Assembly (NCBI GenBank): GCA_951406725.2 | Contig: OX597814.1 | Coordinates: 173,104,001-173,168,000, forward strand | DNA length: 64,000 nt | Direction of reading: 5' to 3' | Origin: Octopus vulgaris | Taxonomy: Eukaryota | Shown: piece after piece, positions 22,095 to 51,162 of the stretch | Layout of the letters: every line of letters begins with the position of its first letter | Position numbering within the stretch: position 1 is the stretch's first letter | Translations under genes and position numbers: made by a program | Notes under the pieces: generated by a model | The model's database searches: none | Seen by the model: the letters and a program-made list of their open reading frames with translations, nothing else | What the model was told of the DNA's origin: nothing

Positions 22095-22191
<97 letters not shown>

Positions 22192-22245
22192 AGGTTTGGA
22201 GATGATGTACAGGTATTATATATTAGAAGAAATGAGGTAATCAGA

Positions 22246-22504
22246 AGATCGGATGGTTTATATTTACAGATATTTATTTATATATTACATTTTTTATATA
22301 TATATATCATATCACTTAGATCATTAGCGCTTTCTCCCATTCTAGTGGGGTTTTCAAATCAAAAAGGAAGAAAGAGTGAGAGAAAGTTGGAACGAAAGAG
22401 TACACTAGAATGGGGGAAAGCGCTAATGATATAAGTGATATGATATATATATATAAAAAATGTAATATATATATAAATATCTGTAAATATAAACCATCCG
22501 ATCT
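22246..22504. repeat. ~100-bp inverted repeat enclosing a SINE fragment
   Basis: Arms 22246-22347 and 22403-22504 are nearly perfect; the spacer contains GGAAGAAAGAGTGAGAGAAAGTTGG..CGAAAGAGTAC of SINE family B. Confidence 0.85.
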
Positions 22505-22509
22505 CATTT

Positions 22510-22549
<40 letters not shown>

Positions 22550-22641: not shown

Positions 22642-23438
22642 GGGGTTGGACAAAATAATGGAAACACCTATTATCATAGCATCATGATTTTGAGATATCT
22701 ATAAAACCGTCAAAAGCTTGTTTATTTATATTTTTTTATTATTAGTGTTTCATCATATGTTTTCCTAAAATTGCTGTTTCTTTTCGGACATCATCAGAAA
22801 AAGGTAATTAAAATACAATAAAATGACAGATCTGTCGGACTTTCAAAGCGGTCAAATTGTTGGAGCTCGATGACAGGCGATAGCGTAACGAAAGCAGCCG
22901 AAATGTTTGGTGTATCAAGAAGTACAGCCTCAAAAGTAATGGCAGCCTATGGGAAAGAGGGAAAAAACCTCCTCGTCGAAACAAAACTCCGGGAAAAAAT
23001 CAAAACTTTCAGATAGGGATCATCGGACTCTTACGCGAATTGTTAGAAAGGATTACAAAAGTACAGCTCCCAAAATTACTGCAGAGCTTAATGACCACCT
23101 CGAGAACCCAATTCCCGCAAAGACTGCTCGCCGGAAGCAACACAAAATCGGATTTCACTTGAGGGCTGCAATAAGAAAACCACTACTTTCAAAAATAAAC
23201 GTTGCAAAGCGTTTAGGGTGGAGTAAAAACCTACAGAATTGGTCCCTAGAGCAGTAGAAGAATGTTGTTTTCTTGGACGAGTCATCTTTTACCTTATTTC
23301 TGACCACCGGCCGAGTATACGAAAACAAAAGAAGCATTTGACCTAGACTGCCTTCTTCCAACTGTTAAACATGGAGAAGGATCTGTGGTGATCAGGGAAG
23401 GGGGCTATATCTTGGAAATCCGCCGGCCCAATGGTTTC
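22640..23438 (+). mobile_element. Tc1-like DNA transposon, left TIR plus truncated transposase pseudogene (ATG 22823)
   Basis: TIR-like AGGGGTTGGACAAAATAATGGAAACAC after TA; MTDLSDFQSGQIVGAR / SVTKAAEMFGVSRST / KLSDRD.RTL.RIVRK / RKPLLS / VVFLDES / PTVKHGEGSV with frameshifts and a stop; breaks at (TA)n before the HHR array. Confidence 0.88.
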
Positions 23439-23439
23439 A

Positions 23440-23494
<55 letters not shown>

Positions 23495-23606
23495 AGGAAC
23501 GGCCATAATAGGCCATTCACCCACTAGAAATAACAGCCAAAGCTTCAACCGCAAAATAACATTAATTCCGCAAACCAGGAGAAAATTAAAAAACATTTAC
23601 CCTGTA

Positions 23607-23713
23607 ATTTCTTATACGATGCACCGTTTCATCTACTGTTTAATGGTAAACTAACCTGATTAAATTAAATCAAGCCAATTTTCCATAGGCCCTTAGATTC
23701 GTCAGTAAGAAAT
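23607..23713 (-). ncRNA. Type I hammerhead ribozyme, unit 1 (allele A, intact stem III)
   Basis: Minus strand: stem I AUUUCUUA, core CUGACGA, stem II AUCUA...UAGAU (long hairpin with G-U pairs), GAAA, stem III ACGG-UGCA-UCGU, cleavage triplet GUA, stem I UAAGAAAU. Confidence 0.85.
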
Positions 23714-24092
23714 AGCCAGAACGGAACAGATATTTTCACGAGGCATTTCTGTCCCTGCCTCGGCAATATCTGACCTAAAATTTTCAAATCATCGCACTCG
23801 CGCCAAATTTATCGGCAGCAAATAAATATAAGCCGCCGATTCCATTACGGAATCAACCAGAAAATTCATAATTAATCAATATAGGGTGGCAAAAATTTTG
23901 TAGAATTTTTTTGCCACCAGCGGCCTAGTGGGAAAAAATTAAATAGCCATAGACCATTTATAAGTTCAACATCACAATCAAGGAACGGCCATAATAGGCC
24001 ATTCACCCACTAGAAATAACAGCCAAAGCTTCAACCGCAAAATAACATTAATTCCGCAAACCAGGAGAAAATTAAAAAACATTTACCCTGTA

Positions 24093-24199
24093 ATTTCTTA
24101 TACCATGCACCGTTTCATCTACTGTTTAATGGTAAACTAACCTGATTAAATTAAATCAAGCCAATCTTCCATAGGCCCTTAGATTCGTCAGTAAGAAAT
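24093..24199 (-). ncRNA. Type I hammerhead ribozyme, unit 2 (allele B, G-G mismatch in stem III)
   Basis: Same fold as unit 1 but stem III reads ACGG-UGCA-UGGU. Confidence 0.75.
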
Positions 24200-24580
24200 A
24201 GCCAGAACGGAACAGATATTTTCACGAGGCATTTCTGTCCCTGCCTCGGCAATATCTGACCTAAAATTTTCAAATCATCGCACTCGCGCCAAATTTATCG
24301 GCAGCAAATAAATATAAGCCGCCGATTCCATTACGGAATCAACCAGAAAATTCATAATTAATCAATATAGGGTGGCAAAAAAATTTTGTAGAATTTTTTT
24401 GCCACCAGCGGCCTAGTGGGAAAAAATTAAATAGCCATAGACCATTTATAAGTTCAACATCACAATCAAGGAACGGCCATAATAGGCCATTCACCCACTA
24501 GAAATAACAGCCAAAGCTTCAACCGCAAAATAACATTAATTCCGCAAACCAGGAGAAAATTAAAAAACATTTACCCTGTA

Positions 24581-24687
24581 ATTTCTTATACGATGCACCG
24601 TTTCATCTACTGTTTAATGGTAAACTAACCTGATTAAATTAAATCAAGCCAATTTTCCATAGGCCCTTAGATTCGTCAGTAAGAAAT
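24581..24687 (-). ncRNA. Type I hammerhead ribozyme, unit 3 (allele A)
   Basis: Same core and stems as 23607-23713. Confidence 0.85.
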
Positions 24688-25070
24688 AGCCAGAACGGAA
24701 CAGATATTTTCACGAGGCATTTCTGTCCCTGCCTCGGCAATATCTGACCTAAAATTTTCAAATCATCGCACTCGCGCCAAATTTATCGGCAGCAAATAAA
24801 TATAAGCCGCCGATTCCATTACGGAATCAACCAGAAAATTCATAATTAATCAATATAGGGTGGCAAAAAAAAATTTTGTAGAATTTTTTTGCCACCAGCG
24901 GCCTAGTGGGAAAAAATTAAATAGCCATAGACCATTTATAAGTTCAACATCACAATCAAGGAACGGCCATAATAGGCCATTCACCCACTAGAAATAACAG
25001 CCAAAGCTTCAACCGCAAAATAACATTAATTCCGCAAACCAGGAGAAAATTAAAAAACATTTACCCTGTA

Positions 25071-25177
25071 ATTTCTTATACCATGCACCGTTTCATCTAC
25101 TGTTTAATGGTAAACTAACCTGATTAAATTAAATCAAGCCAATCTTCCATAGGCCCTTAGATTCGTCAGTAAGAAAT
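25071..25177 (-). ncRNA. Type I hammerhead ribozyme, unit 4 (allele B)
   Basis: Same as 24093-24199. Confidence 0.75.
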
Positions 25178-25343
25178 AGCCAGAACGGAACAGATATTTT
25201 CACGAGGCATTTCTGTCCCTGCCTCGGCAATATCTGACCTAAAATTTTCAAATCATCACACTCGCGCCAAATTTATCGGCAGCAAATAAATATAAGCCGC
25301 CGATTCCGTTACGGAATCAACCAGAAAATTCATAATTAATCAA

Positions 25344-25932
25344 TGATGTTGAACTTATAAATGGTCTATGGCTATTTAATTTTTTCCCACTAGGCCGCTG
25401 GTGGCAAAAAAATTCTACAAAATTTTTTTTGCCACCCTATATTGATTAATTATGAATTTTCTGGTTGATTCTGTAATGGAATCGGCGGCTTATATTTATT
25501 TGCTGCCGATAAATTTGGCGCGAGTGCGATGATTTGAAAATTTTAGGTCAGATATTGCCGAGGCAGGGACAGAAATGCCTCGTGAAAATATCTGTTCCGT
25601 TCTGGCTATTTCTTACTGACGAATCTAAGGGCCTATGGAAGATTGGCTTGATTTAATTTAATCAGGTTAGTTTACCATTAAACAGTAGATGAAACGGTGC
25701 ATGGTATAAGAAATTACAGGGTAAATGTTTTTTAATTTTCTCCTGGTTTGCGGAATTAATGTTATTTTGCGGTTGAAGCTTTGGCTGTTATTTCTAGTGG
25801 GTGAATGGCCTATTATGGCCGTTCCTTGATTGTGATGTTGAACTTATAAATGGTCTATGGCTATTTAATTTTTTCCCACTAGTTGCTGGTGGCAAAAAAA
25901 TTCTACAAAATTTTTTTGCCACCCTATATTGA

Positions 25933-25940
<8 letters not shown>
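25344..25940 (+). mobile_element. Inverted ~1.2-unit copy of the same hammerhead repeat, head-to-head with the array
   Basis: Sequence from TGATGTTGAAC (25344) is the reverse complement of the unit and ends in (TA)n at ~25940. Confidence 0.92.
25608..25714 (+). ncRNA. Type I hammerhead ribozyme in the inverted copy (allele B)
   Basis: ATTTCTTA 25608-25615, CTGACGA 25616-25622, ATCTA/TAGAT stem II, GAAA 25691-25694, GTA 25704-25706, TAAGAAAT 25707-25714. Confidence 0.78.
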
Positions 25941-27990
<2,050 letters not shown>

Positions 27991-50520: not shown

Positions 50521-51162
50521 AGGCGGTGAACTAGCAGAATCATTAGCACACCAGGCAAAATGCTTAGCGGCATTTTGTTCGTCATTACGTTCTGAGCTTT
50601 GTGTTTCACCCTATCGGGGTCGATAAAATAGGTTCCTTATTTCTTTATTGCCCACAAGGGGCTAAACATAGAGGGGACAAACAAAGACAGACAAAGGTAT
50701 TATGTTAATTACATCGACCCCAGTACGTAACTGGTACTTAATTTATCGACTCCGAAAGGATGAAAGGCAAAGTCGACCTCGGCGGAATTTAAACTCAGAA
50801 CGTAACGGCAGACGAAATACCTATTTCTTTACTACCCATAAGAGACTAAACACAGAAAGAACAAACAAGGACAGACAAACGGATTAAGTCGATTATATCG
50901 ACCCCAGAGAGTAACTGGTACTTAATTTATCGACCCCGAAAGGATGAAAGGCAAAGTCGACCTCGACGGAATTTGAACTCAGAACGTAGCGGCAGACGAA
51001 ATACGGCTACGCATTTCGCCCGGCGTGTTAACGATTCACCTTTGCTCGTCACCTTTGAGCTCGTTGATAAAATAAGTTCCAGTCAAGCACTAGAGACCAT
51101 GTAACCGACTAACGCCTTCCCCACCCAAATTTCAGGCCTTGTGCCTATAATAGAAAGGACTA
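50521..51162. mobile_element. Nested SINE family A cluster: minus-strand composite copy (~50637-51037) between plus-strand pieces
   Basis: Head on + at 50521, reverse-oriented double body, then + strand tail. Confidence 0.75.

What the first reader, a model, noticed from the sequence alone, without database searches (positions are those of the whole stretch)
23615..25150. ABAB allele phasing: hammerheads with intact and mismatched stem III alternate
Seen: units 1 and 3 carry TACGATGCACC and CCAATTTTCC; units 2, 4 and the inverted copy carry TACCATGCACC and CCAATCTTCC. The B change creates a G-G mismatch in stem III next to the cleavage site. Inference: if only A cleaves efficiently, the processed RNA is an AB dimer (~975 nt), and rolling-circle reverse transcription of a dimeric circle would write exactly (AB)n into the genome. 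Alternatively A and B cooperate as a double hammerhead through the palindromic UGCA loops.
Basis: partly seen in the sequence, partly recalled or inferred. Interest (0 to 1): 0.8.

Follow-up and report, generated by a model that had tools for sequence, protein, structure and literature searches.

The report
Alternating hammerhead units in retrozyme array
Four head-to-tail copies of a 488-base mobile repeat, each with a predicted self-cutting RNA, alternate between two versions; the same alternation occurs in many sister arrays whose ribozymes look intact, so it likely comes from ordinary DNA copying between repeats, although an RNA-dimer template remains a real possibility.

Summary
The ABAB pattern is real: two linked SNPs alternate over four 486-490-bp units, and the inverted copy is B. 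Each unit holds a well-supported type I hammerhead (core invariant except N7, compensatory stem changes). The array is one insertion of a dispersed family (about 1,860 intact stem-III motifs), inserted in (TA)n, mostly with an inverted arm: a non-LTR retrozyme with Penelope-like ends. The mismatched B allele occurs only here (3 copies genome-wide), so A/B is not an evolved partnership. In 126 loci, 13 of 42 arms with at least four units share SNPs two units apart; periods 1, 3, 4 and 5 also occur, often mixed in one array, and only 2 of 55 shared sites hit critical ribozyme positions, as chance predicts. Post-insertion DNA copying is therefore sufficient (about 0.5). The dimer-circle template stays a close rival (about 0.38): it needs no later events, missing source loci are usual in this family, and a second array with a dead-ribozyme allele is periodic at that site. 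The more robust surprise is the family's end rule: 80 of 87 two-armed insertions begin at two different fixed sites 111 nt apart, never at the same one.

The parts
23439..23490 (.). (TA)n target, left flank
23491..23976 (-). unit 1, type A (128G, 190T, A-run 5); begins at the family's q1 end
23607..23714 (-). type I hammerhead A; predicted cut between 23615 and 23614 (after GUA); stem II carries a hairpin extension of about 60 nt
   Evidence: cleavage not tested
23977..24464 (-). unit 2, type B (128C, 190C, A-run 7)
24093..24200 (-). hammerhead B with G15.3-G16.3 mismatch (base 24104)
24465..24954 (-). unit 3, type A (A-run 9); hammerhead 24581-24688
24955..25344 (-). unit 4, type B, truncated at q390; hammerhead 25071-25178; private SNPs at 25258 and 25308
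25345..25830 (+). inverted unit, type B (q486 to q1); hammerhead 25607-25714; private SNP at 25472; forms a palindrome with unit 4
25831..25937 (+). 111-nt tail (q378-488) ending at the family's second fixed start site; holds a 15-bp hairpin
25938..26091 (.). (TA)n target, right flank

Best explanation
The array is one insertion of a dispersed 488-bp hammerhead repeat family (likely a retrozyme moved by a Penelope-like enzyme), and its ABAB pattern likely arose after insertion, by DNA-level copying of two one-off mutations between units two apart and across the palindrome. Shown: the family, its fixed ends, the (TA)n flanks, the privacy of both SNPs, and the frequency of such sharing in sister arrays. 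Inferred: an RNA of wild-type sequence was reverse-transcribed from both cut target strands into 3.8 direct and 1.2 inverted units; 190T then arose in unit 1 or 3 and 128C in unit 2, 4 or the inverted unit; gene conversion or unequal exchange with the units misaligned by two, plus arm-to-arm conversion between unit 4 and its mirror copy, spread them. That one marker falls in stem III is then coincidence (about 7% for two markers and 16 critical positions of 446).
For: 128C: 3 exact hits, all here, against 870 GUA-type and 988 GUC-type intact motifs; the 2 other 190T hits are single units of other subfamilies. In 126 loci, 21 of 42 arms of at least 4 units share a two-allele site and 13 of 42 do so at a distance of two units; in 11 of the other 12 the alternating units have an intact core and stem III. 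Of 25 arms with 4-5 units, 3 others read XYXY at one site or one close pair (L099, L203, L225). Complementary two-marker alternation occurs inside L031, L032, L060 and L114. Periods are mixed within one array (L060, L114, L209), nested (L210: period 2 inside period 4) or local with unhomogenised edge units (L032, L115, L210), which one RNA circle cannot write. 2 of 55 shared sites are critical, about 2 expected. Mirror-image units share derived alleles more often than non-mates, 10 of 129 against 7 of 319 comparisons, some of them polarity artefacts; clean cases are L036, L041, L120, L123 and L215, the last with one neutral SNP in two direct units and one inverted unit. Units 1-3 have no private SNP while unit 4 and the inverted arm have four changes, as expected if the outer units were overwritten.
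Against: It needs two or three copying events plus a coincidence. No other arm of 42 has two complementary markers phased over the whole arm. The three short-arm parallels rest on one mutation cluster each. The A-runs of units 1 and 3 differ by 4, whereas 0 of 37 SNP-sharing pairs elsewhere differ by more than 2 (11 of 338 non-sharing pairs do), which argues against a recent block duplication. Both shared critical-site alleles found (this one and G12U in L212) are strictly periodic over their arm, against 8 of 42 neutral sites. Innermost units carry more singletons anyway (4.7 against 2.0 per kb), which weakens the overwriting argument. 12 of 88 loci carry alleles fixed across all their copies and seen in no other sampled locus, showing that template-borne private variants are common.
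Confidence: 0.5

Rival explanations
1. Dimer template. A source array had neighbouring units with one private change each; the G-G mismatch slowed cutting at B, a 974-nt AB RNA was released and circularised, and rolling-circle reverse transcription from both target strands wrote ABAB and the inverted B in one event.
For: Explains all five states with no later event. B costs 1.3 kcal/mol more to fold as a monomeric hammerhead (5.18 against 3.86 above the free ensemble), and in a double hammerhead the stem III duplex is -17.5 (AA), -15.0 (AB), -12.5 (BB), with the mismatch always beside B's site. Insertion ends (q1, q378) do not coincide with the cut site (q124/125), as expected of a circular or multimeric template. 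Locus-fixed private alleles span both arms at L054, L055 and L117; genome-wide, none of the three has a source array (one sister locus, one unrelated singleton, one with no other hit), so a missing source is normal. L212 has intact ribozymes at units 2, 5 and 8 and G12U at the rest. Circles as RT templates and accumulated multimers are in print for retrozymes (PMC7229834, PMC4209133).
Against: No source or sister locus with either marker in phase. Alternation does not need a damaged ribozyme elsewhere. In L212 the linked SNPs at q259 and q415 break the period of three. Other internal damaged ribozymes (L041 unit 2, L226 unit 2) have no alternating daughters among the loci examined. One paired base plus a palindromic loop is a natural, dimer-active helix III in amphibian retrozymes (PMC7229834), and the AB duplex is still stable, so B may cut. 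All four later changes fall outside units 1-3.
Confidence: 0.38
2. Two monomer RNAs, A and B, held together by their palindromic stem III, served as alternating templates through template jumps.
For: The stem III sequence is self-complementary over 12 nt. Some loci mix subfamily markers between or within arms (L048, L050), so more than one template can feed one insertion.
Against: Haplotype switches in other arrays often fall inside a monomer rather than at the cut site (L116, L060, L031). No source for either monomer.
Confidence: 0.06
3. Assembly mosaic of two haplotypes or a consensus error.
For: No raw long reads were available to check phasing; the A-run varies from unit to unit.
Against: The two SNPs, 62 bp apart, are linked in 5 of 5 copies; each unit has its own A-run, unlike a duplicated read segment; other arrays have uniform A-runs over 13 units (L032); a mosaic would need three switches at unit scale.
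Confidence: 0.04
4. A and B are an evolved cooperating pair (heteromeric double hammerhead).
For: An AB duplex can form (-15.0 kcal/mol).
Against: B is 3 copies at one locus against about 1,860 intact motifs; AA is the more stable duplex.
Confidence: 0.02

Closest known systems
Non-LTR retrozymes of animals (Cervera and de la Pena 2020, PMC7229834; Li, Clavereau and Pollet 2026, 10.64898/2026.07.22.740005)
   Same: Non-coding, low-GC tandem units, each with a type I hammerhead with a short helix III and a palindromic loop; dispersed arrays from dimers to long multimers.
   Different: Unit of 488 bp, above the 150-450 bp given; stem II has a 5-bp base plus a conserved hairpin of about 60 nt, so Rfam misses it; inverted arms, two fixed start sites and (TA)n targeting were not among the passages I saw ('inverted' 0 hits in PMC7229834).
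Penelope-like elements, endonuclease-bearing clades including Naiad (Craig et al. 2021, PMC8557442)
   Same: Partial tandems, an adjacent inverted 5'-truncated copy, a tail at one end only, insertion bias for (TA)n.
   Different: No ORF; tail of about 111 nt instead of 30-40 bp; Naiads lack canonical hammerheads; no autonomous partner found.
Double (dimeric) hammerheads of newt and axolotl repeats and of PLE pLTRs (PMC4209133, PMC7229834)
   Same: Weak helix III that becomes a long palindromic duplex when two ribozymes pair.
   Different: Here helix III has 2 canonical pairs plus G-U; heteromeric pairs that differ at 16.3 were not found in the passages read.
Higher-order repeats in satellite and minisatellite DNA (unequal exchange, gene conversion; from my own knowledge, with the passage on expansion by unequal crossover in 10.64898/2026.07.22.740005)
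   Same: Variants shared at fixed distances, nested periods, diverged edge units.
   Different: Arrays here are short (up to 18 units), young and made by retrotransposition; at this locus the phasing covers the whole arm.

Membership tests
type I hammerhead ribozyme | core CUGANGA, GAAA and UH in the right order, with helices II and III closed and helix I open | tested here: met
   H17 is A in this subfamily and C in another
type I hammerhead ribozyme | core conserved with N7 free; stems kept by compensatory change | tested here: met
   N7 reads G 184, C 112, A 33, T 16 while its neighbours are invariant in 344-345 units; 98% of cells paired, 3 pairs and 6 cells changed on both sides in 15 hand-picked sequences (0 of 500 shuffles for cells, 34 of 500 for pairs; related sequences inflate this)
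type I hammerhead ribozyme | match to an Rfam hammerhead model | tested here: not met
   no hit at gathering score or at E up to 10; the long stem II insertion is the likely reason (inference)
type I hammerhead ribozyme | self-cleavage at the predicted site | not testable with these tools
   needs an in vitro assay
non-LTR retrozyme | short, low-GC, non-coding tandem units, each with a type I hammerhead, at many loci | tested here: met
   488 bp is slightly above the published range
non-LTR retrozyme | expression as linear and circular monomer RNA | not testable with these tools
   only assembled contigs were available
non-LTR retrozyme | target-site duplication longer than 4 bp when present | tested here: inconclusive
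   both flanks are (TA)n, so a duplication cannot be read
non-autonomous Penelope-like element | tandem plus inverted 5'-truncated arrangement and microsatellite target | tested here: met
   87 of 126 loci have abutting inverted arms; 160 of 170 primed ends lie beside (TA)4 (100 loci)
non-autonomous Penelope-like element | 30-40-bp tail at one end only | tested here: not met
   a one-ended tail exists but is about 111 nt (80 of 87 loci)
non-autonomous Penelope-like element | sequence shared with the pLTR of an autonomous element | tested here: inconclusive
   no real match in 42 stretches around GIY-YIG hits (30 best of 148 hits plus 12 wider stretches; only 150 of 6,136 candidates were scored); the one 53-bp match was a nested fragment
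higher-order repeat made at the DNA level | mixed or nested periods and unhomogenised edge units | tested here: inconclusive
   met in L032, L060, L114, L115, L209, L210; this locus is too short to show it

The most novel reading that the evidence does not exclude
This locus is a genomic footprint of a two-unit circular RNA: one mutation silenced every second ribozyme, the RNA was processed to a dimer, and reverse transcription wrote the dimer's phase into both arms. It would be direct sequence evidence that hammerhead-processed circles are the templates of Penelope-type insertion, and with L212 (period three) it would mean that ribozyme activity sets the period of new arrays.
Probability: 0.38. 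Interest if true: 0.72.

Novelty: new member of a known kind. Interest (0 to 1): 0.45.

Why it matters
That retrozyme and Penelope RNAs are copied from ribozyme-made circles is proposed in print (PMC4209133, PMC7229834), and PMC8557442 says the origin of the tandem/inverted structures still awaits an experimental system. This family offers well over a thousand young copies with unit-level markers, a strict two-site end rule and natural ribozyme mutants, so both questions become testable. If the ABAB is only DNA turnover, the locus itself is ordinary and the value lies in the family.

Tried and rejected
Rfam found no hammerhead. Long-read phasing: the run search listed 21 runs, all kept as contigs; 20 hold the stretch or part of it (8 studies, 4 organism codes); no RNA holder listed. 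Laying 4 of them on unit 2 gave G at 24104 in 99.7%, 99.9%, 100% and 100% of depth, but contigs drop rare variants and no piece spans the unit, so this says nothing on phasing or expression. Gapped patterns for long arrays could not be run; multi-unit DNA queries were used instead, each scoring only 40 of 1,245-1,802 candidates, so the 126 loci are a sample biased to long arrays. Autonomous partner: a 781-aa GIY-YIG ORF family is abundant but shares no sequence with the unit; the L140 match was rejected as a 53-bp nested fragment. Fold-back origin of the inverted arm: rejected, because copying the direct arm back would make the inverted unit A, and truncation points of the two arms match within 15 nt in only 7 of 66 loci against 4.0 in shuffles. 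Pile-up of inner ends at the cleavage site: not evident. In-register twin priming on one dimeric RNA would make the inverted unit A, not B (inference). The A-run test was not decisive. L048, L080, L127 and L135 (compound insertions) were left out of arm counts, also L110 and L133; homopolymer columns were skipped. 128A and 136A alleles (L128, L116) give G-U wobble pairs and are shared by adjacent, not alternate, units. Earlier scan notes: nothing. PMC5785218 on dimeric PLE hammerheads is not held. A protein scan of the neighbouring transposase-like piece failed on stop codons and was dropped.

Full report
Observation. The window holds 3.8 direct units of 486-490 bp (23491-25344) and an inverted arm of 1.2 units (25345-25937) between two (TA)n tracts. 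With positions counted along unit 2 (q), two SNPs alternate in phase: q128 G,C,G,C and q190 T,C,T,C; the inverted unit is C,C. Unit 4 has two private SNPs, the inverted unit one, the tail one small change, and units 1-3 none; an A-run reads 5, 7, 9 in the direct arm and 8, 7 in the inverted arm.

The ribozyme. On the minus strand each unit has an 8-bp stem I, CUGACGA, a 5-bp stem II continued by a hairpin of about 60 nt, GAAA, a stem III of C-G, G-C and G-U closed by UGCA, and GUA. Rfam does not detect it. The family does support it: across about 345 units N7 takes all four bases while its neighbours are invariant; a second large subfamily has GUC instead of GUA; 15 hand-picked sequences keep 98% of cells paired, with compensatory changes in stems I and II. 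B turns G15.3-C16.3 into G-G. The active monomer fold lies 3.86 (A) and 5.18 (B) kcal/mol above the free ensemble; the stem III palindrome pairs at -17.5 (AA), -15.0 (AB) and -12.5 (BB), and in AB the mismatch stays beside B's site. The A change turns a G-U pair of the stem II extension into A-U. That inner helix III mismatches slow cleavage strongly is recalled from trans-cleavage studies and comes from no call. Cleavage itself is untested.

The family. The genome has 2.8 Gb in 227 contigs; its size, about 30 large contigs and microsatellite load fit an octopus (recalled, not tested). Exact stem III motifs number 870 (GUA) and 988 (GUC); the B motif occurs 3 times, all here. The A marker has 2 other hits, single units of other subfamilies. 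I compared 126 loci, chosen as best hits to one-unit and multi-unit queries and from a list for contigs 1 and 2, so long arrays are over-represented. Of 87 loci with abutting inverted arms, 80 have one arm starting at q1 and the other near q378; 7 have one other end; none has the same start twice. 160 of 170 primed ends in the first 100 loci lie beside (TA)4. This matches the tandem, inverted, one-ended-tail and (TA)n features described for Penelope-like elements (PMC8557442, passages), with a longer tail, and the unit matches non-LTR retrozymes (PMC7229834, passages; 10.64898/2026.07.22.740005, part 1 of 5 and passages). No autonomous partner was found.

Is alternation special? No. Among 42 arms of at least four units (four compound loci left out), 21 share a two-allele site and 13 do so at a distance of two units. 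In 11 of the other 12 the alternating units have an intact core and stem III. Four-unit windows read XYXY in 19 of 62 and 13 of 66 cases in the two sets (overlapping windows, not independent). Several arrays mix periods (L060, L114, L209), nest them (L210) or alternate only locally with distinct edge units (L032, L115), which points to DNA-level exchange. Of 55 shared sites 2 lie in the 16 critical positions, about the 2 expected. Derived alleles also pass between mirror-image units of the two arms (10 of 129 against 7 of 319, with some polarity artefacts), and L215 shows one neutral SNP in two direct units and one inverted unit. Every step needed for a DNA-level origin is thus seen elsewhere without ribozyme damage.

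What speaks for the dimer. This is the only arm of 42 with two complementary markers phased throughout. A single unequal crossover cannot make it, since unit 4 ends at the original junction (inference); two or three events and a 7% coincidence are needed. The A-runs of units 1 and 3 differ by 4, more than in any of 37 SNP-sharing pairs elsewhere, though only 5 of 338 other pairs differ that much either. Privacy of B is no argument against an RNA template: 12 of 88 loci have locus-fixed alleles seen nowhere else in the sample, and none of 3 tested genome-wide has a source array. The only other shared knock-out allele, G12U in L212, leaves intact ribozymes at units 2, 5 and 8, a strict period of three, against 8 of 42 neutral sites that are strictly periodic; but two linked SNPs there break the period. 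Circles as templates for more-than-unit reverse transcription are proposed in PMC4209133 (parts 1-2 of 4 read) and PMC7229834, which also reports multimeric RNAs in axolotl. A rough product of the measured rates puts the two models within a factor of a few of each other; this is my estimate and no call computed it. I give 0.5 to DNA turnover and 0.38 to the dimer.

Print. Searches for 'retrozyme' with 'higher-order repeat' gave 0 papers; 'octopus' with 'hammerhead ribozyme' gave 5, none on such a family by title or abstract start; (listings only, apart from the papers named) showed no report of phased intact and damaged ribozymes. PMC6765202 was seen as passages. I read no supplements; family lists in the supplements of PMC7229834, PMC8557442 or the 2026 preprint, and Repbase, which I could not search, may already hold this element.

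Verdict. A real pattern in a new member of a known kind of element. The cooperation idea fails; the dimer-circle idea is an open, testable rival rather than the default. The family's two-site end rule is the firmer and perhaps more useful finding. Interest 0.45.

Noticed in passing
family-wide; here window 23491 and 25937: Two-armed insertions start at two different fixed sites (q1 and about q378, 111 nt apart) in 80 of 87 loci and never at the same site twice; single-arm loci use either. Suggests two distinct priming sites on one template.
   Followed up: partly
L212 836-4705 (G000:C7, about 78.333-78.337 Mb): A G12U core allele in units 1, 3, 4, 6, 7 leaves intact hammerheads at units 2, 5, 8 (period three); linked SNPs do not follow the period.
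   Followed up: partly
L210 1087-6584; L115 2373-6844: Clean higher-order repeats: a period of two nested in a period of four (L210) and an exact four-unit duplication including the A-run variant (L115), with distinct outer units.
   Followed up: partly
family-wide: The unit touching the inversion junction carries more private SNPs than the others (4.7 against 2.0 per kb), with clusters at L043, L064 and L055; error-prone joining or repair at the palindrome centre is possible.
   Followed up: partly
L050, L048: The two arms, or segments of one arm, carry markers of different subfamilies, so one insertion can draw on more than one template.
   Followed up: no
G000, e.g. L168-L173: A young family with a 781-aa (in one copy 771-aa) open frame holding a GIY-YIG match, often preceded by a frame of about 310-380 aa; many near-identical copies; no sequence shared with the 488-bp unit.
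   Followed up: partly
window 22188-22511: A short element with an internal inverted repeat between (TA)n tracts; a similar piece lies in L140 at about 200-320. Looks like a very short two-armed insertion of another (TA)n-targeting family.
   Followed up: partly
window 22642-23438: A decayed piece between (TA)n tracts that looks by eye like a Tc1/mariner transposase gene; not confirmed by any scan.
   Followed up: no
window 50638-51004: Two copies of a 184-bp repeat, likely a common SINE-like element of this genome (recalled).
   Followed up: no
runs X1-X20: The unit is held by runs under four organism codes, so the family is shared by related organisms or labels.
   Followed up: no
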